Part shown: one piece after another, positions 41,636-49,398 of the stretch
Layout of the letters: each line of letters opens with the position of its first letter
How positions within the stretch are numbered: position 1 is the stretch's first letter
Assembly: GCA_963817525.1 (NCBI GenBank)
Contig: CAWFOU010000007.1
Coordinates: 736,001-800,000, forward strand
DNA length: 64,000 nucleotides
Reading direction: 5' to 3'
From: an uncultured archaeon
GTDB lineage: Archaea; Thermoproteota; Nitrososphaeria; Nitrososphaerales; Gagatemarchaeaceae
Notes under the pieces: generated by a model
Databases searched by the model: none
What the model was told of the DNA's origin: nothing
Seen by the model: the letters and a program-made list of their open reading frames with translations, nothing else
Made by a program: the position numbers and the translations under genes

Positions 41636-42349
41636 TCATCTCTGCCGATGGCGTCGCACTTCGGCTGACGTCACGCGACCCTCGCCCTCTACGAGCACGT
41701 ATCCCCTTCCTCTTCCCAGAATTCGCCGAATGGTCTCCCTGGCATACTTTGGGTGCATCCTACGGAGTTCGCTCAGGCAGCGCCCCTCTTCGAAATGCGC
41801 TCTTCTGATATTGTCGTAGTCCCTCCTGGATACCTTCGCTCTTGACTTTTCTATCGCTGCAACGATTTTTGCTCTTCTCTTATCTTTCATCAGAGCGTCG
41901 CCTTCCGGATAGGTGAACGGAACATGAATGACGACCTTCCTCTCACGCCTTTCCCTTCGACCTGCCTCAACCTCCTCTCCAAAAATCCCGAATAGGTCGT
42001 CACCTCGAACCCTTCCCTCGTAGCAGTCGATTCCGGCCTGTGCCTCAATGGCTTTCTTGAAAAGGAACGGACGCATTGCCTTCAAGCAAAACAACACACT
42101 CTCGAATCGGCTCACCGCAACCATGTAGGCTGTTCCCTTGGAGGTCTTCAGGACGTTACTCGTAATCACACCATGCTTCTCAAGGAACCCTCGGACCATC
42201 ATAATCTGATCTCCAGACTGGTCGACAAAGATTAGGCTCAGGCTGATTTTGTAAGGCTGATTGGAAGTGTCTGAAATGACTATCGTCCCGTCGCCATCGA
42301 AGTAGCCAGCTACCTGCCTCCAGGAGGTATATTCGGTCACTCTCCACAA
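41636..42349 (-). CDS. Free-standing LAGLIDADG endonuclease-like protein with C-terminal basic helical extension
   Basis: QVAGYFDGDGTI motif, ...IFVDQS..., RPFLFKK; lower GC than host genes. Confidence 0.8.
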   Translation of the reverse strand: MWRVTEYTSWRQVAGYFDGDGTIVISDTSNQPYKISLSLIFVDQSGDQIMMVRGFLEKHGVITSNVLKTSKGTAYMVAVSRFESVLFCLKAMRPFLFKKAIEAQAGIDCYEGRVRGDDLFGIFGEEVEAGRRERRERKVVIHVPFTYPEGDALMKDKRRAKIVAAIEKSRAKVSRRDYDNIRRAHFEEGRCLSELRRMHPKYARETIRRILGRGRGYVLVEGEGRVTSAEVRRHRQR

Positions 42350-42687: not shown

Positions 42688-43737
42688 TCAGTCTTGGACT
42701 GTGAAGTGGGATAGCACAATGTCGCCCCACTCGTCTACCGCTGCCACGGTGTAGGTACCCGGAGGGAAGAGTAGGAATGTCTCCTGGGGATGGGCAGAGG
42801 CGGAGTCGGTGACCCAGTAGCCAAAGAGGGTCGCCGAAATGCTCGCGTTCACCTGCGTGGGGTTCGTCCCATACGCCGTTGCCTCGCTGCTCTGGGGTCC
42901 GAAGATGTAGTATGAGGCTGCATTTCCCCCGCAGATCGTTTTGCCCTGGCTCAGGGGCACGGGGGTGCCCTGGGTGAAGTTTCCCAGGCCGTAGTCGCCC
43001 TGGTAGACCACGAAGTCGACCCATCCGCCGGCGCAAACACCGTTGATGGTCCAGGGTGTGACCGCCCAATCCTCCCCTGTGGAGAGGTTGTTCGCACTGT
43101 CCAGCGTGTTGACATCGTAGGCCGTCACGGTGATCGTCTGGTTGGCGGTTGCCGTGAGGTTTAGGGTGAGGCTCAGATGGGTCTGTAGGTCGAGTCTCGA
43201 CACCGAAGCAGCAGGAACCTGGATGCTGGCGACCGCGGAAGAAGACTGCACCCCGGACGTGGAGGGTGGAGGCGCTGGTTCGCCAAGGATGAATGCGGTC
43301 GAGTTGAGGAGAACGCAGTAGGCTCCCACTTCGCCCGTGAACCCCAATTCGTAGGCGCAGTTGGCCCACGGTTGACTTTGGTTGTGGTAGGGAACCACGT
43401 TGATGCCGTAGGTCGGAAACGGGAAGACATCGCTCACCACGACTTTGCTGCACGATCCACCAGGCTCTGCGGGAAAGGAAGGTGGGCAGTTGAAAACGTA
43501 GGCTGGTTGTCCCCAGCAGGGCGCGTTGCCTCCATCGCAATTCCCAGACGCTGTGATGAAATCGAACCCGTAGACGGTCAAGAGAGAGCCTGTCGTGGTC
43601 ACAGTGTTGGTCGCGGTGGTTGTAGACGTGCTCGTCGATGTCAGCGTGGTCTTGGTGCCGGACTCATAGACGGTGGTCGATGCAAGGACTATCGTCAGCG
43701 CCACGAGGAGCCCAAACAGCGCGGATTTGACGTTCAA
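42688..43737 (-). CDS. Membrane-anchored exoprotein, GYW/DxWG-domain family
   Basis: N-terminal TM, Thr linker, Cys-rich domain, then QGDY, GYW, FPPGTYTVAAVDEWGDIVLSHF. Confidence 0.75.
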   Translation of the reverse strand: MNVKSALFGLLVALTIVLASTTVYESGTKTTLTSTSTSTTTATNTVTTTGSLLTVYGFDFITASGNCDGGNAPCWGQPAYVFNCPPSFPAEPGGSCSKVVVSDVFPFPTYGINVVPYHNQSQPWANCAYELGFTGEVGAYCVLLNSTAFILGEPAPPPSTSGVQSSSAVASIQVPAASVSRLDLQTHLSLTLNLTATANQTITVTAYDVNTLDSANNLSTGEDWAVTPWTINGVCAGGWVDFVVYQGDYGLGNFTQGTPVPLSQGKTICGGNAASYYIFGPQSSEATAYGTNPTQVNASISATLFGYWVTDSASAHPQETFLLFPPGTYTVAAVDEWGDIVLSHFTVQD

Positions 43738-43900: not shown

Positions 43901-44098
43901 ATGAAGCCTTCCTTCCTGGTGGTCGCAAGAAACGGTGGGATGCTAAACAAGTTCGAGCAGGACTCGATGCTAAAGTCGTCGAACCTCAAGGACTATCTCG
44001 AAGGCCTCGGCGACTACCAGGACGTCTCGATCTTCCAGTTATCCATGAACAGCGGGATCAGCAAGGATTGGGTGAAGCTGGCCGCGTTCGAGTCCTGA
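43901..44098 (+). CDS. Small hypothetical protein
   Basis: ATG about 25 nt below a strong TTATATATAA box; host-like codons. Confidence 0.6.
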   Translation: MKPSFLVVARNGGMLNKFEQDSMLKSSNLKDYLEGLGDYQDVSIFQLSMNSGISKDWVKLAAFES

Positions 44099-44112: not shown

Positions 44113-45228
44113 TTAGGAGTAAACCCTGGCGATGGCTCGAAGCTGGGCCCTCGACATCTTGACCGGAGGAGTTCCCAGAGACTGGACGAGGACCTGCTGA
44201 TGGCTTCCGGCGCTGCCCGCCTCGCTGACCCGCTCCCCGAAGGTCTCTCCGCGGGTCGCGAACATGCTAGCGAGGAAGGTCGTATACCCGTCTGGCTTCT
44301 GCCATTCTAGTTTCTTGCCGAGCTCCTGGAAGACCTCCCAGAGAAGCGAAGGCCTCGACAATGTCTGGGTCACAGGCGGGAGGGCTGCTTTTGTTTCGCC
44401 GCTCTGGTCTTTTTTGTAAGCCCCCACCGAGCGCACAAAGCCGCCTCGGGTCGCCTCGACCGTGAGCAAGTCGTAATCCATCGTCGAGAGTGACGAAGGC
44501 CATCCCTTCGCGTCGAGCCGCACGGCCTCGACCGAGATGCGCAGCGTGCTCTCGGCCTCCGCGGAGTCGACTGGGAGCAGATACGCCCCGAGCGGCGCCG
44601 AGATGCGGACCAGCTCGCCGAACCTCGCGACGAGCGACTCCTCGGCTCCTCCAATGGTGAGGGAGGCGGCCTCGAGAACCACGAAGAGAGACGGCCCGGT
44701 GTCCCCCAAGATGACCAGTAGCGTCTCGTCTACCCCGCCCAGTACCCTGCCTGCCTGCTTCGTCGCTAGCTTCACCTCCGCCAAGGCGAACCAGTGGAAG
44801 GGGTCGAGGCTGGGCCTGAGCAGGATCGAGTCTGGCACCGGCCGCAGGGCGCCGTGGCATCCCAGCCTGATCGCCGGCGTGCCCCAGAGGAGAAGGACGA
44901 GCCCGACCCCCCCGAAGACAAAGGGCGAGAGAGTCCCGCCCTCCGCTACCGCCACCGCCGCCAGGAAGAGGAAGACCAGCCCCAGCCCACGTCGCAACGG
45001 GTGGCCGACACGGCCTCTGAAGCTCACCGGGACGACGACCTGCGTCCCTTGTCGAGGGATGGTTGGAGCCGCCACCGCGGTCGGGGGGCTCCGCCGCCCG
45101 AGGCGCAGGAGGCGGACGATAAGGCCACCAAAGGCGTAGAGGAAGAGGAGAGCCGAAACAGGCCAGCCGCCGAGCGGGAGGAGCATCAGCCCGACAATGA
45201 CCGCGAGCCCCTTGAGCAGCAGTCCCAT
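44113..45228 (-). CDS. Membrane protein (about four N-terminal TMs) with large soluble C-terminal domain
   Basis: Hydrophobic segments in the first ~115 aa; starts 2 nt after the ATPase stop. Confidence 0.7.
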   Translation of the reverse strand: MGLLLKGLAVIVGLMLLPLGGWPVSALLFLYAFGGLIVRLLRLGRRSPPTAVAAPTIPRQGTQVVVPVSFRGRVGHPLRRGLGLVFLFLAAVAVAEGGTLSPFVFGGVGLVLLLWGTPAIRLGCHGALRPVPDSILLRPSLDPFHWFALAEVKLATKQAGRVLGGVDETLLVILGDTGPSLFVVLEAASLTIGGAEESLVARFGELVRISAPLGAYLLPVDSAEAESTLRISVEAVRLDAKGWPSSLSTMDYDLLTVEATRGGFVRSVGAYKKDQSGETKAALPPVTQTLSRPSLLWEVFQELGKKLEWQKPDGYTTFLASMFATRGETFGERVSEAGSAGSHQQVLVQSLGTPPVKMSRAQLRAIARVYS

Positions 45229-45230
45229 GG

Positions 45231-46313
45231 CTAGTGGAACCCCTCCCCGTCCACCCTCGAGTACCCGTACTTCGCGTACTCCCCCATCGCGGGGTGCCTC
45301 TGGACCCAGATGCGCCTGAGCTCCTTGTCATCGTCGTCCCTCTCCTCCGGGTTGATCTCGGCGGCGTCCTTGTTCCTCTTCGAGGCGCCCTTGGTCAGCT
45401 CGAAGCTGAACTTCGCCTCGTGCCCCAGCATCACCCCGCCGTATGGCCTCCTGTCCCACTCGTGCATTGGGTCGATGGAGACGTGGCTCACCACCACCAC
45501 GGCTATGCCGAACTCGACGCAGAGGCGCTGCGCATGGGATAGTATCATTGCCATCCCCGCACTCCTCGCGGGAAGGTCCTGCGTGTTCGGGAACGTCGAC
45601 TTGAATGGCGCGGAGATCGAGTCGTAGACGAGCAGCTTCACGTTAGTCTCTTTGATCACCTGCCTCAGGACGGACTCGTAGACCGGCGTCCGCTTCAGCC
45701 TTAGGGTGACACGCCCTCCCTCCGAGACCTCCTTATCCGCGACGACCCCGTGGAGGCTGAGGAGGTCGATGACGTCCGGCATCTGTATGACCATCGCCGA
45801 AGGCACCGTCACGTCGTCGAGCTGGAGCTGGAACTCGGGGCAGACCAGGTCGGCCATCGAGCCTATTTCGGATTCACTGTAGACTATGCCGAGCTGGTTG
45901 AGCGCGCTGCTCAGGGAGGTGATGACCTGGCTCCTGGTGGCGGGCTCCTTCTTCTTGTCGCCCCGTCCTGAGCCCGCCCTCTTTGGGACCTTCTCGAGCT
46001 TGAGGTTCTTGAGTTGGAAGTCCTGGCCGAGCTTCGCGCTCAGGCGGGGCACCCAGTAGGGGGCGAGGTAGCTGAAGTAGGACTGCTCGGTGTCGATCAG
46101 CAGGGCGCTGTGCCCGCTCGAGACCGCGGAGAGCGCGGCCTGGAGCGAGAGTATGCTCTTCCCGAGGGCCTTCTCGCCGAAGATCTGCGTGATGGTCCCT
46201 GTCGCCAGCCCGCCGTCCGTGAGGGTGTCGAGGACCTTGCAGTTGGTGGGGAGCCTCTCCAGAGCCCCCACCGGCCCCTGACCCGCCTTTTCCGACTCGG
46301 CCTCCTCCATCAC
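45231..46313 (-). CDS. RecA/RadA-superfamily ATPase (RadB/aRadC-like paralog with a long insert)
   Basis: RLPTNCKVLDTLTDGGLATGTITQIFGEKALGKS, IDTE, LLVYDSISAPFK, YGGVMLGH. Confidence 0.85.
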   Translation of the reverse strand: MMEEAESEKAGQGPVGALERLPTNCKVLDTLTDGGLATGTITQIFGEKALGKSILSLQAALSAVSSGHSALLIDTEQSYFSYLAPYWVPRLSAKLGQDFQLKNLKLEKVPKRAGSGRGDKKKEPATRSQVITSLSSALNQLGIVYSESEIGSMADLVCPEFQLQLDDVTVPSAMVIQMPDVIDLLSLHGVVADKEVSEGGRVTLRLKRTPVYESVLRQVIKETNVKLLVYDSISAPFKSTFPNTQDLPARSAGMAMILSHAQRLCVEFGIAVVVVSHVSIDPMHEWDRRPYGGVMLGHEAKFSFELTKGASKRNKDAAEINPEERDDDDKELRRIWVQRHPAMGEYAKYGYSRVDGEGFH

Positions 46314-47557
46314 TTGCTCAACTCCAGGAGGCTCTTCCCCTTCTCCGTGAGCGCCAGGACGCTCATCGGTCGCCCGGACTTTAGGTCCTTCTGCACGACC
46401 TCCACGTAGCCCTCGCCCTGGAGCTTGTCCAGAGTCCTCTCGACCAGCCCCTGGTCGTATGCCTGGGAGAGGAACGCGACCACGGACTGCCTCGTCGGCG
46501 CCTCGTAGGAGTCGATGTCGAGCAGCATCTGCGAGATGAGGTCAGCCGTCTCGGCCTCGGGCTGGACGGGCTCCGTCCCCTTGGGCGGCCCGCTCTTGGG
46601 CTCGAACTCCCTCGGGATGAACGTGGTATCGTGACCGTATGGGTGGTTGCGGACCATGAACATGTTGGGGAGGAGGACTTCGTCCCGGCGCGCGCTCCCG
46701 TTCCAGACCGCGCTCGAGTGTATCCTGACGAAGCCGGTCTCCTCGAAGTGCTCGTCGAGGCCGTAGGCGGTCTCCGTCGCGAGGACCTTGGGGATGGGCG
46801 AGGCGACGAACGACGCCAGGAGCCTCTCCGTCCTCCTGAAGACAGGCCTGACCCTGAAGAGCCTCCCTGCCTGCGGGATGATCACCACGTCCGGGCGGCC
46901 TGCGGCTCCCGCCTCGAGGGTCGCGAGGAGCTTCGCGAGGACGAGGGCAGCCGCCGTCTCTACGGCCTCCGGCTGGCCTGCCCCGGCGAAGCTCAGGACG
47001 GCGCTCCTATGCAGCAGCGCGCCCATCGCCCCCGCGTCTCCGACCATGTTGAGGGAGGAGAGCGAGGCGAGCCTCGAGATGAGCCTGTCCGCCGGGCGCC
47101 CCCTGAACTTGTCGTTCTTCTCGACCATGAGGTCGGCCACCGCTGCCGGGCTGGCGACGCCGCGCTCCGAGGCGATGATCTGCATCGCGGAGTTGATTAT
47201 CCCCTCCTGCTCGAAGGAGAGGTCCAGCGCGCACGAGTAGGCGGAGGCGGCGAGCTGCCCGTGGACGCTCGCTGAGGTGCCATCCTCGTCGATCCGGAGG
47301 GCGTCGTAGAGGAAGTGCGGGAGCTCGTACGAGTCGATGTATCCAGAGAGCTTCCCCGAGACCACGCCGCCGATGTCGAGGACGAGCGTCCTGAGCCCCG
47401 CCTCGTTGCAGGCGTAGGCGACTAGCGCGGCGAGGTCCGCCGCCCCCTGCCCCAGGATTGTGATCCCTCTCCGGATGTCTTCCTGGTTGAGCTCGAACCT
47501 GCCCGCTGTGCTCCTGTACCCAAGCCTTACCGACCTTCCGCTTGACTCAGAAATCAT
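46310..47557 (-). CDS. Degenerate HerA/VirB4-like P-loop protein with C-terminal winged helix
   Basis: RGITILGQGAAD at the Walker A position, LVLDIGG, VVIIPQAGRLF at the Walker B (hhhhDEAHR) position; C-terminal LDKLQGEGYVE...LTEKG. Confidence 0.6.
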   Translation of the reverse strand: MISESSGRSVRLGYRSTAGRFELNQEDIRRGITILGQGAADLAALVAYACNEAGLRTLVLDIGGVVSGKLSGYIDSYELPHFLYDALRIDEDGTSASVHGQLAASAYSCALDLSFEQEGIINSAMQIIASERGVASPAAVADLMVEKNDKFRGRPADRLISRLASLSSLNMVGDAGAMGALLHRSAVLSFAGAGQPEAVETAAALVLAKLLATLEAGAAGRPDVVIIPQAGRLFRVRPVFRRTERLLASFVASPIPKVLATETAYGLDEHFEETGFVRIHSSAVWNGSARRDEVLLPNMFMVRNHPYGHDTTFIPREFEPKSGPPKGTEPVQPEAETADLISQMLLDIDSYEAPTRQSVVAFLSQAYDQGLVERTLDKLQGEGYVEVVQKDLKSGRPMSVLALTEKGKSLLELSK

Positions 47558-47595
47558 GCGGAGAAAGGACGGAGCGGGCTTATAGAGAATTCCTC

Positions 47596-47617
47596 ACCTA
47601 AGATACTTATCTTAGGT
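47596..47617. promoter_or_regulatory. Perfect 10-bp inverted repeat (candidate operator) between divergent promoters
   Basis: ACCTAAGATA-CT-TATCTTAGGT, between TATA-like boxes at about 47580 and 47633. Confidence 0.7.
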
Positions 47618-47663
47618 AAGTCCCGTGTTTTCCTTAATTACTCTCGACCCCTCTTCCCGATGG

Positions 47664-47918
47664 TTGAAGAGGAGGCCGAACGTCCTCATCTACATGGAGA
47701 TCCTCGATCTGCTCTTGGACGGGCCTAGGGGTCCCACGAGGCTCGCGCAAGCCATGGGACTCAACTTCAACAAGTTCCTGGAGTTCGCGACCTTCCTGAA
47801 GGCGAGGGAGCTCATCAGGAGCGTGGACCAGGAAGGACACGAGCTATATTTCATCACTCAGAAAGGCTCCGAGCTCAACAACGACTGGAAGAGGGTCTGG
47901 AACAGGCTCGCCCCCTGA
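47664..47918 (+). CDS. Archaeal winged-helix transcriptional regulator
   Basis: KRRPNVLIYMEILDLL..GP.GPTRLA..MGLN...YFITQKG; TTG start about 24 nt after CTTAATTA. Confidence 0.85.
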   Translation: MKRRPNVLIYMEILDLLLDGPRGPTRLAQAMGLNFNKFLEFATFLKARELIRSVDQEGHELYFITQKGSELNNDWKRVWNRLAP

Positions 47919-47975
47919 GGCAACTTATCATAGGTGAGGAAGGGTTTTATGTCAAAAGCGGACTTCGGGCCTCTC

Positions 47976-48350
47976 GTGGCCGAAGAGCAAGCCGATCACG
48001 CCAAGGTCGCTGTTCTCGACGCCCACGAGGAGTTCGTCCAGCACATCGAGAGCGGGCAGGCCCGGATACGCGTCCTGTCGCTTGTTACTATCGTGGTCGC
48101 CTTCATTCTGCTCGCGTCCTACTTCGACCAGGTCCTCACCCCCTTCACGACCGGGACGAAGGTCGTGACGGTGAACCTCCTCGATCCGACCCTCCTGGCG
48201 CTCGAGCTTATCCTAATCGCCGTGACCTTCGCGTGGCTCTACGTCGGGGTGGTGAACTATCTCTTCGCGTCGCGCCTCGGCAGGCAGATCAAGGAGGCCC
48301 GCGCAAAGGAGAAGGAGATCGAGGGCAGGCTAGGTCAGCCGGGGGCTTGA
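47976..48350 (+). CDS. Two-TM membrane protein
   Basis: Two hydrophobic helices, charged tail. Confidence 0.65.
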   Translation: MAEEQADHAKVAVLDAHEEFVQHIESGQARIRVLSLVTIVVAFILLASYFDQVLTPFTTGTKVVTVNLLDPTLLALELILIAVTFAWLYVGVVNYLFASRLGRQIKEARAKEKEIEGRLGQPGA

Positions 48351-48417: not shown

Positions 48418-49398
48418 ATGGCGCAAGACGAGGCTCCCCTCTCTTGGCAGACGGTCAGGTCCGGTGGCCGCCTGTCGCTAGTCTTGGTCTTCCTGCTCTC
48501 GATAGTGTTCGGGCTCCTCGGGACGGTCCCGTTCCTGGCCTTCGCCCTCGTCTACGGGGCTAACACCGCCGAAAGCATAGTCCAGGCAGACATGTCGGAC
48601 ATCCTGTGGCTGCTGAGGTCCTGGGAGCTCGGGTTCTTCCTGGTCTTCTACCAGCTCGGAAACCGTTTCGACCTCCGACGCCAATACCCGTACCTGGCGG
48701 CCCTGTCCATGGCCGGGGTCCTCATAGGGTCCATCCCCGAACTCGTCTCGATACAGGCCGTCCCCGGCACCTCGTCCGCCACTTTCAGCTTCGCGTTCCA
48801 GGGCGTCGGTCTCGGGGGGACTGTGGCAGTTCTCGTCGGGTACCTCGACAACGCCTTCCAAGACTTCGCCTTTCCGTTCGCCGGCCTCGCGCTGGCCTTT
48901 GTCATCGGGCAGGCACGCTTCAGAGTCCCCTCTGGGAGCCGCCTCCTCGAGGGGCGAGCCCTGGCTCTAGGGTTCGCGATCACCACGATCGCTTTCCTTG
49001 CATCAGGGATCACCTTCGTGCTCGGGTCGCGCTTGTCGAGCCTGTCCGCGTTCGTGGTATCCACTCCGTACGACTCCTACGCGTATGATTTCTTCTACCC
49101 GCTTGTCTTCTTCGTCGTCTTCTACTTCGTCGGCAAGAGGCTGCTTGACTCCAAGGGCGGAATGGTCACGTTCGCAATCTGCGTCTTCGCTGCCGGTGTC
49201 CTCGGATTCCTTGTCGGCCAGCCGCTCGCCTATTATCTCAGGACCTTCGCCTCTACAGGCCAGCCCTCCGCTCCGTTCGCCTTCGACGCTTCATTCTTGG
49301 AGACCGCGCTGGTGCGAGGCGGCTACGTGCTGACCTTGGGACTGGCGGGCGCGTGCTTGGGGTTCGTCAGGAGCATGAAGCGCCAAGCATCATGGTGA
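48418..49398 (+). CDS. Multi-pass membrane protein with internal duplication
   Basis: About eight TMs; FFLVFYQLGNR and FFVVFYFVGKR repeat. Confidence 0.65.
   Translation: MAQDEAPLSWQTVRSGGRLSLVLVFLLSIVFGLLGTVPFLAFALVYGANTAESIVQADMSDILWLLRSWELGFFLVFYQLGNRFDLRRQYPYLAALSMAGVLIGSIPELVSIQAVPGTSSATFSFAFQGVGLGGTVAVLVGYLDNAFQDFAFPFAGLALAFVIGQARFRVPSGSRLLEGRALALGFAITTIAFLASGITFVLGSRLSSLSAFVVSTPYDSYAYDFFYPLVFFVVFYFVGKRLLDSKGGMVTFAICVFAAGVLGFLVGQPLAYYLRTFASTGQPSAPFAFDASFLETALVRGGYVLTLGLAGACLGFVRSMKRQASW

What the first reader, a model, noticed from the sequence alone, without database searches (positions are those of the whole stretch)
44113..47918. Coupled operon of a degenerate HerA/VirB4-like protein, a RadA-paralog ATPase and a membrane protein, under a palindromic operator with a divergent wHTH regulator
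Seen: three tightly coupled genes (GTGA overlap at 46310-46313; 2-nt gap at 45229-45230). Gene 1 keeps the HerA/FtsK/VirB4 layout but both Walker motifs appear lost (GQGAAD; VIIPQAGRLF) and it ends in a winged helix. Gene 2 is a RecA-fold ATPase lacking the RadA N-terminal domain, with an unusual Walker A (GEKALGKS) and a long insert before Walker B. Gene 3 has about four TMs plus a large soluble domain. A perfect ACCTAAGATA-CT-TATCTTAGGT repeat lies between the divergent promoters. Established: HerA/VirB4-like ATPases paired with membrane proteins form the archaeal Ced and conjugative DNA-transfer machines. Inference: a regulated membrane-associated DNA uptake, recombination or signalling module in which a pseudo-ATPase scaffold partners a RecA-fold enzyme. 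I do not recognise a described system with this composition.
Basis: partly seen in the sequence, partly recalled or inferred. Interest (0 to 1): 0.72.

Follow-up and report, generated by a model that had tools for sequence, protein, structure and literature searches.

The report
Dead HerA-like, RadA-paralog, membrane-protein operon
A conserved three-gene operon in soil archaea pairs a catalytically dead relative of DNA-pumping ATPases with an intact RadA-type recombinase paralog and a membrane anchor, and it looks like an undescribed helper of DNA recombination working at the cell membrane.

Summary
Three translationally coupled genes (46310-47557, 45231-46313, 44113-45228, minus strand) sit behind a unique perfect palindrome (47596-47617) and a divergent wHTH gene.

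- **Gene 1:** it has a HerA/VirB4/DndH-type fold (Z 19-22). It has no Walker A or B in any of 12 relatives aligned, and it ends in a PadR/MarR-like winged helix.
- **Gene 2:** a RadA/Rad51-family ATPase with intact catalytic motifs, no HhH domain and about 94 extra residues.
- **Gene 3:** four TM helices plus a cytoplasmic domain that modestly resembles the VirB4 N-terminal domain and ESX chains that are probably EccE (Z 7.4-8.7).

The trio is syntenic in 20 of 20 loci from non-ammonia-oxidising Nitrososphaeria. It was not found in 301 genomes of the two largest families.

Homologous dead HerA-wHTH proteins (hhalign 98.4%) lie between a TM protein and the canonical radA in 6 of 7 loci from other Thermoproteota. 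Each has a divergent membrane-bound wHTH regulator.

I read it as a lineage-specific version of an unpublished, membrane-anchored RadA-accessory module. It is not a mobile, defence or classical Ced/T4SS element. The function is inferred, not shown. The palindrome type follows the divergent wHTH, which supports that pair as regulator and operator.

The parts
46310..47557 (-). Gene 1: Walker-less HerA/VirB4-fold domain (about residues 5-330) plus a C-terminal PadR/MarR-like winged helix (about residues 334-415).
   Evidence: ORF. AF2 model pLDDT 84.5. Foldseek hits DndH-C E 8e-8, HerA 4e-7, VirB4 1e-6. VIA scores Z 22.4, 20.8 and 19.1 for the body and Z 10-11.6 for the winged helix. No Walker A or B in 12 of 12 relatives. 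No Pfam hit apart from a weak wHTH.
45231..46313 (-). Gene 2: RadA/Rad51-family ATPase paralog. It lacks the HhH domain, keeps the catalytic motifs, and has about 94 extra aa between DTE and Walker B plus a C-terminal acidic insert.
   Evidence: PF08423 at 61.9 bits against a cut-off of 22. It falls below the RadA and RadB equivalog cut-offs. Invariant residues are G46, G51, K52, S53, D74-T75-E76, D231, R250 and G292-G293.
44113..45228 (-). Gene 3: membrane protein with TM helices at 3-16, 22-43, 77-95 and 101-114, a linker helix, and a cytoplasmic alpha/beta domain at 128-371.
   Evidence: AF2 model pLDDT 80.5. Best fold matches are ESX-3/ESX-5 chains (Z 8.1-8.7) and the R388 TrwK/VirB4 N-terminal domain (Z 7.4-8.0); the next match is Z 5.8. 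No Pfam, NCBIfam or PADLOC family.
47579..47586 (-). Putative TATA box of the trio (TCTATAAG on the minus strand), 21 nt before the gene 1 ATG. This implies a leaderless mRNA.
   Evidence: Sequence. The TCTATAAG box (TCTTTAAG in two) sits at a similar distance, in an ATTCTC/ACTCTC context, in 10 of 13 upstream regions compared. Its role as a promoter element is inferred.
47596..47617 (.). Perfect 10-2-10 palindrome, 9 nt upstream of the gene 1 TATA box. Putative operator.
   Evidence: Searches show it is unique in the window and in the genome. Its position relative to the gene 1 promoter is conserved, and its sequence type follows the divergent wHTH.
47664..47918 (+). Divergent wHTH regulator (HTH_45 / Sso10a-like), 84 aa from TTG 47664. 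The longest ORF starts at 47625. A TATA-like CTTAATTA lies at 47633-47640.
   Evidence: PF14947 E 1.4e-10, 41.5 bits against a cut-off of 25.5. NF053610 E 3.2e-9, below its cut-off. Orthologue starts.
47934..48350 (+). 138-aa two-TM protein in an operon with the wHTH gene. Probable membrane partner of the regulator.
   Evidence: It lies next to the wHTH in 9 of 10 close loci; in L005 and L010 about 0.8-1 kb separates them, and in 2 of 10 distant ones. Other lineages carry wHTH-TM fusions at the equivalent place. The partnership is inferred from architecture only. No sequence homology to the fusions was found.

Best explanation
The three genes form one leaderless, translationally coupled operon that encodes a membrane-anchored, RadA-linked accessory complex.

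- **Gene 3** would anchor the complex in the membrane. Its four TM helices place an EccE/VirB4-NTD-like domain in the cytoplasm.
- **Gene 1** is a HerA/VirB4-type subunit that lost ATP binding long ago but stays under selection. It would serve as an oligomeric scaffold and present PadR-like winged helices to DNA.
- **Gene 2** is the only subunit able to hydrolyse ATP. It is a RadA paralog that keeps the L1 arginine and the GG motif after L2, so it would carry out the ATP-dependent DNA binding or remodelling.

The operon is the non-AOA Nitrososphaeria version of a wider Thermoproteota cluster: membrane-bound wHTH regulator, then divergently a TM protein, a dead HerA-wHTH protein and radA. The most likely role is therefore in homologous recombination or repair of DNA held at the membrane.

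Expression is set by the divergent 84-aa wHTH, probably working with the 2-TM protein encoded after it, through the palindrome that abuts the BRE/TATA of gene 1.

**Shown:** gene structure, folds, motif loss and retention, synteny, homology to the radA-linked proteins, and palindrome-regulator covariation.

**Inferred:** complex formation, DNA binding, membrane topology, promoter elements, and the recombination role.
For: - **Coupling.** Junctions of 20 nt or less between the three genes where both reading frames are intact (17 of 20 loci; L006, L009 and L010 have frame breaks), spanning at least five families of the class.
- **Gene 1 fold.** VIA Z 22.4 to DndH-C, 20.8 to the VirB4 CTD, 19.1 to HerA and 18.5 to TrwB, over 280-304 aligned residues. 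Foldseek E 8e-8 to 1e-6. Language-model neighbours are DUF87/HerA/TrwB clusters at 0.90-0.93.
- **Gene 1 is dead but kept.** 0 of 12 relatives have Walker A or B, yet the protein is 19-52% identical across families with no stops.
- **Gene 2 is intact.** Walker A, the DTE catalytic Glu, the Walker B Asp, R250 and the GG motif are invariant, both in 20 of 20 family members and against canonical RadA.
- **Gene 3.** The nine best structural matches are all membrane-proximal partners or parts of FtsK/HerA-type secretion ATPases.
- **Matching distribution.** Gene 1 was found in 20 of 401 genomes and gene 2 in 26 of 401 of the class sample, in the same families. Neither was found in 0/223 (f2) and 0/78 (f4).
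- **Link to radA.** Of 7 extended loci from other Thermoproteota, 6 carry a Walker-less gene 1-like ORF. All 6 have a TM protein just upstream and the canonical RadA (HhH plus Rad51, 232-256 bits) just downstream. hhalign of gene 1 against these proteins gives 98.4%, E 4.8e-15, over 388 columns including the wHTH.
- **Regulator.** A divergent ArsR/TrmB-wHTH fused to 3-4 TM helices is present in 6 of 6 of those loci.
- **Palindrome.** It is unique in the genome. Its type follows the divergent wHTH: type-A wHTHs are 73-96% identical to each other, including L008, whose gene 1 is only 50% identical and whose gene 1 winged helix is only 38% identical.
- **Chromosomal context.** TiaS and a glyoxalase flank the locus and are syntenic in relatives.
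Against: - No experiment and no expression data bear on the locus.
- The gene 3 fold matches are only moderate (Z 7.4-8.7). The tool itself warns that Z under 8 can reflect a common arrangement.
- Gene 3 shows no detectable similarity to the TM proteins of the radA-linked clusters (hhalign probability 0.8%). The membrane subunits may therefore not be equivalent.
- Gene order differs: TM-dead HerA-radA elsewhere, dead HerA-RadA paralog-TM here.
- Gene 2 has His in place of the Gln of RadA's NQV motif and lacks the polymerisation/HhH region. It may not form filaments or exchange strands.
- Adjacency to radA elsewhere suggests but does not prove a shared function.
- The own genome keeps a canonical RadA and a second short paralog elsewhere, with no dead HerA beside them.
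- The winged helix of gene 1 could mediate protein contacts rather than DNA binding.
Confidence: 0.45

Rival explanations
1. A regulatory or signalling module. Gene 1 is mainly a transcription factor (a PadR-like wHTH on a pseudo-ATPase sensor body). Gene 3 holds it at the membrane. The RadA/KaiC-like ATPase gene 2 releases or remodels it, in the way proposed for archaeal KaiC-like signalling hubs.
For: Public annotations call gene 1 relatives 'PadR family transcriptional regulator'. The C-terminal 80 aa match MarR/PadR/VanR regulators at Z 10-11.6. The N-terminal part of gene 2 also matches KaiC (PF06745, 32.7 bits against a cut-off of 26.6) and ArlH/FlaH models weakly. Membrane-bound wHTH proteins accompany the module in several lineages.
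Against: The motifs of gene 2 from Walker B to the C-terminus are those of Rad51/RadA, not KaiC. In other lineages the partner is the canonical recombinase RadA itself. The palindrome type does not follow the winged helix of gene 1, so no target site for gene 1 is evident. The paper proposing KaiC hubs could not be read, so the comparison rests on recall.
Confidence: 0.2
2. A Ced/T4SS-like DNA transfer machine. Gene 3 plus gene 1 would form a split VirB3/VirB4-like unit that moves DNA across the membrane, powered by gene 2, and hands it to recombination.
For: Gene 1 is most like VirB4-CTD, VirD4 and HerA. The gene 3 domain matches the VirB4 N-terminal domain, residues 19 to about 401-435, in 5 R388 entries. 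Split VirB4-like proteins have a precedent in Sulfolobales, where CedB and CedD each cover part of the VirB4 NTD (PMC11868833, abstract and section 9). A RadA-type partner would fit uptake coupled to recombination.
Against: The VirB4-like subunit has no nucleotide-binding motifs in any lineage, whereas that paper describes CedB and CedD as having C-terminal ATPase domains. No pilin, VirB6/CedA-like channel or relaxase gene is linked in the 20 loci inspected. The flanks are housekeeping genes. RecA-fold recombinases are not known to translocate DNA through membranes (established knowledge).
Confidence: 0.15
3. An anti-virus defence system or a remnant of an integrated mobile element built around a HerA-like protein.
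For: HerA-family proteins are common in defence systems, and the structural hit list includes SIR2-HerA, DUF4297-HerA, TdpAB and DndH. A LAGLIDADG-like ORF lies 2 kb away, though the match is weak.
Against: No PADLOC model matches any of the four proteins at a meaningful level; the best E-value is 0.026. There is no nuclease, SIR2 or other effector gene. The locus is single-copy and syntenic with core genes, and it is present in 9 of 11 genomes of the own family. The ATPase is dead in all lineages. No integrase or repeats were noted in the flanks inspected.
Confidence: 0.05

Closest known systems
VirB4 of type IV secretion, and the split VirB4-like CedB/CedD of the Sulfolobales Ced DNA-import system
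   Same: Gene 1 aligns to the VirB4 C-terminal domain (4ag5, Z 20.8, 297 residues). The gene 3 cytoplasmic domain aligns to the R388 TrwK/VirB4 N-terminal domain (Z 7.4-8.0, 166-187 residues). Distributing VirB4 parts over two proteins is reported for CedB/CedD (PMC11868833, section 9).
   Different: Walker A and B are absent in gene 1. It carries a C-terminal winged helix. No pilin or channel genes are linked. Its partner is a RadA paralog. The locus is chromosomal and syntenic. No Ced components were searched for in this genome.
HerA (HerA-NurA end-resection helicase) and the DndH C-domain
   Same: The same RecA-like core with helical insertions: DndH-C Z 22.4 and S. solfataricus HerA Z 19.1. 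Both are linked to DNA repair or DNA transactions.
   Different: The model begins directly at the core. The Pfam DUF87 model does not detect it. It has no ATPase motifs and no NurA, Mre11 or Rad50 neighbours. The genome has separate DUF87 proteins with matches above the cut-off.
Archaeal RadA paralogs (RadB, aRadC/SSO2452 type) and eukaryotic Rad51-paralog mediator complexes
   Same: Gene 2 has a Rad51/RadA core without the N-terminal HhH domain and keeps Walker A/B. PDB profile hits include RadB, SSO2452, XRCC3 and RAD51C. The idea that paralogs act as mediators is recalled knowledge.
   Different: Gene 2 scores far below the RadA and RadB equivalog cut-offs (67 against 259; 66.7 against 172.4). 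It has about 94 extra residues with its own invariant motif (P179, L185, G189, R201, V202, L206). It is always co-encoded with a dead HerA-like protein and a membrane protein.
EccE-EccC of mycobacterial type VII secretion
   Same: Gene 3 has a TM hairpin, a linker helix and a cytoplasmic alpha/beta domain. EccE3 is described the same way (PMC6986878, passages found). The best structural matches are ESX-3/ESX-5 chains, Z 8.1-8.7. EccE sits beside an FtsK/HerA-superfamily ATPase.
   Different: That the matched chains are EccE is my inference from their lengths and the paper's description; no tool confirmed it. The Pfam EccE model matches neither gene 3 nor anything else in the genome, and it also matched none of the control genomes, so that test is uninformative. 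No other T7SS genes are present.
The TM protein / dead HerA-wHTH / radA cluster of other Thermoproteota
   Same: Gene 1 is homologous over its full length, including the wHTH (hhalign 98.4%). Both versions have a RadA-family gene directly downstream, a membrane protein in the operon, and a divergent wHTH regulator tied to the membrane.
   Different: Here the RadA-family gene is a diverged paralog with inserts rather than the canonical recombinase. The membrane protein lies last, is larger (4 TM plus a 245-aa domain) and is not detectably related. The regulator is split into a wHTH gene and a 2-TM gene.

Membership tests
FtsK-HerA superfamily, HerA/VirB4/VirD4 branch (gene 1) | RecA-like P-loop core with the helical insertions typical of HerA/VirB4/TrwB | tested here: met
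   VIA Z 18.5-22.4 over 280-304 residues to DndH-C, VirB4, HerA, DotL and TrwB. FtsK scores 12.5 and EccC 12.9. Foldseek E 8e-8 to 1e-6.
FtsK-HerA superfamily, HerA/VirB4/VirD4 branch (gene 1) | Walker A GxxxxGK[ST] | tested here: not met
   0 of 12 aligned relatives from at least five families have it. The window protein has ILGQGAADLA at that position.
FtsK-HerA superfamily, HerA/VirB4/VirD4 branch (gene 1) | Walker B hhhhDE | tested here: not met
   The window has VVIIPQAGRLF. Some relatives have TEAN or TEAH, and none has the acidic pair.
FtsK-HerA superfamily, HerA/VirB4/VirD4 branch (gene 1) | Match to the Pfam DUF87/HerA sequence models | tested here: not met
   No such hit at E up to 1. 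A PF01935 scan of the genome does not list this locus.
RadA/Rad51 family (gene 2) | Pfam Rad51 domain above the gathering score | tested here: met
   PF08423 at 61.9 bits against 22, in two stretches.
RadA/Rad51 family (gene 2) | Walker A, catalytic Glu after strand 2 (DTE), Walker B Asp | tested here: met
   G46, G51, K52, S53, D74-T75-E76 and D231 are invariant in 20 of 20 family members and shared with canonical RadA.
Canonical archaeal RadA (gene 2) | N-terminal HhH domain and equivalog-level score | tested here: not met
   There is no HhH region. NF003301 scores 67 against 259 and TIGR02236 58.2 against 361. The canonical RadA is elsewhere in the genome (303.7 bits).
RadB (gene 2) | Equivalog-level score to TIGR02237 | tested here: not met
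   66.7 bits against a cut-off of 172.4.
KaiC-like ATPases (gene 2) | Pfam KaiC/ATPase domain over the whole core | tested here: inconclusive
   PF06745 scores 32.7 bits against 26.6, but covers only residues 22-79. The archaeal KaiC and ArlH models fall far below their cut-offs.
VirB4 N-terminal domain / EccE-like cytoplasmic domain (gene 3) | Shared fold of the membrane-proximal domain | tested here: inconclusive
   Z 7.4-8.7 with 131-187 aligned residues. The nine best of the 1000 chains compared are all ESX or TrwK/VirB4, and the next match is Z 5.8. Foldseek best E is 3.8e-3. No sequence family matches.
Ced DNA-import system | Active VirB4/HerA-type ATPase (CedB) with CedA/CedA1/CedA2 membrane and pilin proteins | tested here: not met
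   The gene 1 ATPase motifs are absent. The Ced composition is taken from the PMC11868833 abstract. I did not search the genome for CedA-type proteins.
HTH_45 / Sso10a-like wHTH (divergent regulator) | Pfam PF14947 above the gathering score | tested here: met
   41.5 bits against 25.5. NCBIfam Sso10a_fam scores 36.7 against 60, below its cut-off.
Known anti-phage defence systems (PADLOC) | Any component model match | tested here: not met
   The best E-value is 0.026-0.046, on winged-helix segments only.

The most novel reading that the evidence does not exclude
The locus is one branch of an ancient gene cluster that runs across Thermoproteota and has never been described. In it, a VirB4/HerA-type DNA translocase was turned into a dead, DNA-binding ring tethered to the membrane and dedicated to RadA. 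This would be a membrane-anchored recombination platform that receives DNA at the envelope (imported DNA, or tethered or broken chromosome) and loads a RadA-family ATPase onto it, under a membrane-bound wHTH sensor-regulator. In non-AOA Nitrososphaeria the radA copy inside the cluster became a specialised paralog with a new insert domain, and ammonia oxidisers lost the whole module.
Probability: 0.22. Interest if true: 0.85.

Novelty: new variant of a known kind. Interest (0 to 1): 0.62.

Why it matters
Archaeal homologous recombination has few known accessory factors, and none is known to be tied to the membrane. Here a catalytically dead HerA/VirB4 relative carrying a DNA-binding winged helix is co-inherited with RadA or a RadA paralog and a membrane anchor across distant Thermoproteota. 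That pattern suggests a missing part of the RadA pathway, and a possible evolutionary bridge between DNA-transfer ATPases and recombination.

The idea is directly testable in cultivable relatives that carry the radA-linked version, by deleting the genes and measuring recombination, UV/DSB survival and DNA exchange. The palindrome-wHTH pairs offer an easy EMSA system with natural specificity variants.

For Gagatemarchaeaceae-like soil archaea, which are uncultured, the operon marks a conserved trait that separates them from ammonia oxidisers.

Tried and rejected
- **Complex prediction** of gene 2 + gene 3(125-371) + gene 1(1-335) gave no verdict: ipSAE 0.50, 0.27 and 0.00, median below the mark. 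I do not use it either way.
- **Expression:** no RNA holder was listed for window:44000-48400. The 13 rows, from 6 studies, are soil or peat metagenomes (one without an organism label), none on record as RNA. I therefore did not use read laying.
- **Sequence searches of PDB** with gene 1 found only a MarR wHTH at E 0.88.
- **Atlas neighbours of gene 3** (DUF6585-containing Planctomycetota clusters, 0.90, recognition below threshold) were too weak to use.
- **Rosetta-stone test.** I asked whether the wHTH-2TM fusion of L014 is homologous to the window's wHTH or its 138-aa TM protein. BLASTP gave nothing meaningful, so that argument rests on architecture only.
- **Gene 3 against the TM proteins of the radA-linked clusters:** hhalign probability 0.8%.
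- **The Pfam EccE model** found nothing in the genome, but it also matched none of the control genomes, so the test is uninformative.
- **Structural families not seen near the top for gene 3** beyond ESX/VirB4. The remaining rows were helical-hairpin or eIF2-alpha-like matches at Z 5.8 or lower.
- **The KaiC-hub paper** (mBio 2017) is not held.
- **Literature searches** for the composition returned nothing that describes it. Supplements were not consulted.
- **The sigma-70 promoter/terminator scanner** was not used because it does not cover archaeal promoters.

Full report
**What is there.** ORF listing confirms three same-strand genes with coupled junctions.
- Gene 1 is 46310-47557(-), 415 aa.
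- Gene 2 is 45231-46313(-), 360 aa. Its GTG overlaps the gene 1 TGA, and the next codon is an ATG that would also overlap it.
- Gene 3 is 44113-45228(-), 371 aa, after a 2-nt gap.

The intergenic region holds the perfect palindrome ACCTAAGATA-CT-TATCTTAGGT at 47596-47617. It is the only match with up to 3 mismatches in the window, and none of 100 shuffles gave a match. Its core occurs once in the 2.82-Mb assembly, and the reversed control gave 0 hits.

The divergent ORF (47625-47918) is an HTH_45/Sso10a-like winged helix (PF14947, E 1.4e-10; NF053610, E 3.2e-9 but below its cut-off). Orthologues in 12 loci begin at the residue that corresponds to TTG 47664, so the protein is probably 84 aa. 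A 138-aa two-TM protein follows it (47934-48350).

**Gene 1.** It has no Pfam, NCBIfam or PADLOC family apart from weak C-terminal wHTH hits.

Its family is small. There are 88 clusters in the 5.8-billion-protein set, named 'hypothetical' or 'PadR family transcriptional regulator' and labelled Nitrososphaerales or Thaumarchaeota where a label exists. There are 99 representatives in 1.84 billion proteins.

An AF2 model from 30 sequences has pLDDT 84.5. Foldseek places it with DndH-C (E 8e-8), HerA (4e-7), VirB4 (1e-6) and TrwB. The Foldseek-independent search gives these scores:

| Structure | Z |
|---|---|
| DndH-C | 22.4 (299 residues) |
| VirB4 CTD | 20.8 |
| HerA | 19.1 |
| DotL | 18.9 |
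| TrwB | 18.5 |
| FtsK | 12.5 |
| EccC | 12.9 |
| MarR/PadR/VanR regulators, residues 334-415 | 10-11.6 |

Language-model neighbours are DUF87/HerA/TrwB clusters.

In an alignment of 12 relatives from at least five families, none has a Walker A and none has the acidic Walker B pair. Some keep 'TEAN/TEAH' where HerA-type proteins have DEAH; that motif is recalled, not tested. The loss is therefore old and the protein is maintained: it is a stable pseudo-ATPase.

**Gene 2.** It matches Rad51 (PF08423, 61.9 bits against a cut-off of 22) in two pieces. It scores far below the RadA and RadB equivalog cut-offs.

Twenty family members share an invariant set of residues: Walker A (G46, G51, K52, S53), D74-T75-E76, the Walker B D231, R250 and G292-G293. 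These are also shared with canonical RadA.

Compared with RadA, gene 2 differs in four ways:
- It lacks the HhH domain.
- It has about 94 extra residues between DTE and Walker B, with their own invariant positions (P179, L185, G189, R201, V202, L206).
- It has an acidic insert of about 20 aa near the C-terminus.
- It has SHV/NHV in place of NQV.

The genome separately encodes a canonical RadA (340 aa, 303.7 bits) and a 266-aa paralog. GEKALGKS is a canonical Walker A.

**Gene 3.** It has no sequence family. The AF2 model (20 sequences, pLDDT 80.5) has helices at 3-16, 22-43, 77-95 and 101-114, a linker helix, and an alpha/beta domain at 128-371. The Arg-rich 44-76 loop suggests that the loop and the C-terminal domain are cytoplasmic. 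This follows from the positive-inside rule and is an inference.

Foldseek's best hits are ESX-3 chains (E 3.8e-3). The Foldseek-independent search ranks ESX-5 first (Z 8.5), then ESX-3 (Z 8.1), then TrwK/VirB4 residues 19-445 (Z 7.4). On re-alignment of Foldseek's top 1000 chains, the nine best are four ESX entries (Z 8.1-8.7) and five R388 TrwK/VirB4 N-terminal-domain entries (Z 7.4-8.0). The next match is Z 5.8.

The ESX chains have the length expected of EccE. The ESX-3 paper describes EccE3 as two TM helices, a linker helix and a cytoplasmic domain (PMC6986878, passages). The chain identity is my inference. These scores are moderate, so I treat the resemblance as a lead that fits the gene 1 fold, not as proof.

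**Conservation.**
- All 10 loci found in species-representative genomes carry gene 1, gene 2 and gene 3 in order, together with the wHTH and the 138-aa TM gene. L007 is cut by its contig end, and L006, L009 and L010 show frame breaks.
- Ten more loci from more distant families of the class also carry the set. Each has a gene 1-like ORF, of which BLAST detects only the C-terminal part or nothing in the most distant loci. Each has a full-length gene 2 homologue (34-58% identity) and a downstream ORF with TM helices and a soluble domain. In L019 the downstream ORF is split over two frames. Junctions are 20 nt or less wherever the frames are intact.
- In a 401-genome sample of the class, gene 1 was found in 20 genomes and gene 2 (E 1e-30 or better) in 26. 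They fall in the same families: f1 9/11 for both, f14 1/1 for both, f15 6/10 for gene 1 and 7/10 for gene 2, f12 3/9 and 6/9, and f20 2/2 for gene 2 only. Neither was found in f2 (0/223) or f4 (0/78).
- No gene 2-type protein appeared at E 1e-25 in 400 other genomes of the phylum.
- The flanks are housekeeping genes and differ between families: TiaS and a glyoxalase here, and what look by sequence motif like Glu-tRNA amidotransferase or ribosomal-protein genes elsewhere (recalled motifs, not run through a family search).
- Two of the closest relatives (AcS1-13 and palsa-1368, 80-83% identity) are Gagatemarchaeaceae (Group I.1c, non-ammonia-oxidising) according to PMC10640624 (passages). The window's genome is probably from that family, by inference.

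**The wider family.** A note from this scan (e1-1374948) described a dead HerA-like protein with a wHTH and a membrane anchor upstream of radA in another genome. I tested the idea.

The gene 1 profile found ATPase-domain matches in other Thermoproteota families. Of 11 short loci, 7 hold a Walker-less ORF of 446-468 aa and 4 hold Walker-positive HerA-like proteins. I extended 7 places, chosen from the better matches. Six carry the Walker-less protein, and the seventh is an active HerA-type ATPase. In all six:
- a 200-241-aa TM protein lies directly upstream;
- the canonical RadA (319-321 aa, HhH plus Rad51 at 232-256 bits) lies directly downstream.

Profile-profile comparison of the two groups of dead proteins gives 98.4% probability and E 4.8e-15 over 388 columns, including the winged helix.

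In 6 of 6 of these loci the divergent neighbour is an ArsR/TrmB-type wHTH fused to 3-4 TM helices. One distant Nitrososphaeria locus (L014) has a wHTH-2TM fusion upstream.

The membrane subunits themselves are not detectably related. The fusions are not detectably related to the window's wHTH or TM protein either.

**Regulation.** The TATA-like TCTATAAG (47579-47586, minus strand) lies 21 nt before the gene 1 ATG. The box recurs with similar spacing in 10 of 13 upstream regions compared, twice as TCTTTAAG, which implies a leaderless mRNA (inference).

A palindrome always sits about 9 nt upstream of this box, but its sequence differs by lineage:
- Type A is found in the window, L001, L002, L003 and L008.
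- A palindrome built on GCACTCAT...ATGAGTGC is found in L005, L006, L009 and L010.
- A 13-nt-arm palindrome is found in L004.
- No palindrome with arms of 7 nt or more was found in L007, L011, L017 or L020.

The type follows the divergent wHTH. The type-A regulators are 73-96% identical to one another, the second group 75-95%, and identity between the groups is 43-52%.

The type does not follow gene 1. L008 has the type-A site and a 77%-identical regulator, although its gene 1 is only 50% identical and its gene 1 winged helix only 38% identical.

The distance from the palindrome to the wHTH gene varies, and in some loci they are more than 1 kb apart. The site therefore belongs mainly to the trio's promoter. 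Because it abuts the BRE/TATA, it could serve either repression or activation.

**Interpretation.** The evidence fits a membrane-anchored complex in which a dead HerA/VirB4-type scaffold with winged helices partners a RadA-family ATPase. The repeated adjacency to radA itself points to recombination or repair as the process.

The Ced-like DNA-transfer reading keeps some weight because of the VirB4-like parts and the precedent of split VirB4 in Sulfolobales (PMC11868833, abstract and section 9). A translocase without nucleotide-binding motifs and without channel or pilin genes is hard to defend, however.

A purely regulatory role for gene 1 remains possible. Defence or mobile-element readings are unlikely.

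No binding, expression or activity has been shown. The complex prediction gave no verdict, and no RNA data were available (see Tried and rejected).

**Novelty.** Five literature searches and the papers read describe no system with this composition. The parts belong to known superfamilies. The assembly, and its link to radA across Thermoproteota, appears to be unpublished.

Noticed in passing
window 43901-44098 (+): A 65-aa ORF convergent with gene 3 has its own TATA-like TTATATATAA about 25 nt upstream. It is conserved at 71-77% identity in L005 (again just after gene 3) and in L006 (elsewhere in the locus), and it is frame-broken in L002. It has no Pfam family.
   Followed up: partly
L006, L009, L010 (genes 1 and 2): tblastn matches to gene 1 and/or gene 2 are split over frames in these three assemblies. 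This may reflect sequencing errors in the assemblies or real decay. I did not resolve it.
   Followed up: no
window 41636-42349 (-): A 237-aa ORF has weak LAGLIDADG-like matches (E 0.02) and an Arg/Lys-rich C-terminal half. A 33%-identical relative lies in L003 downstream of the trio.
   Followed up: no
window 42688-43737 (-): A 349-aa protein has an N-terminal hydrophobic segment followed by a Thr/Ser-rich stretch and many Cys and N-x-S/T sites. It is probably a secreted or S-layer-associated glycoprotein. It has no family, and a partial relative lies in L006.
   Followed up: no
L041:6889-7221 and the equivalent gaps in L037-L039: In the radA-linked clusters of one Thermoproteota family, a small ORF of about 110 aa with no Pfam family lies between the dead HerA-like gene and radA. 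This matches the 'small basic protein' of the earlier scan note. The window has no counterpart.
   Followed up: partly
L001, L003, L005, L009, L010 between the wHTH gene and gene 1: Between 1 and 4.6 kb of extra DNA separates the regulator from the trio in these relatives, while the palindrome stays with the trio's promoter. Only one copy of the type-A site was found per locus, so the regulator's own promoter lacks it there.
   Followed up: partly
window 48418-49398 (+): A 326-aa polytopic membrane protein without a family lies between the regulator operon and the glyoxalase gene. It is conserved in L002 (74% identity) and only weakly in L003, so it is not a constant neighbour.
   Followed up: no
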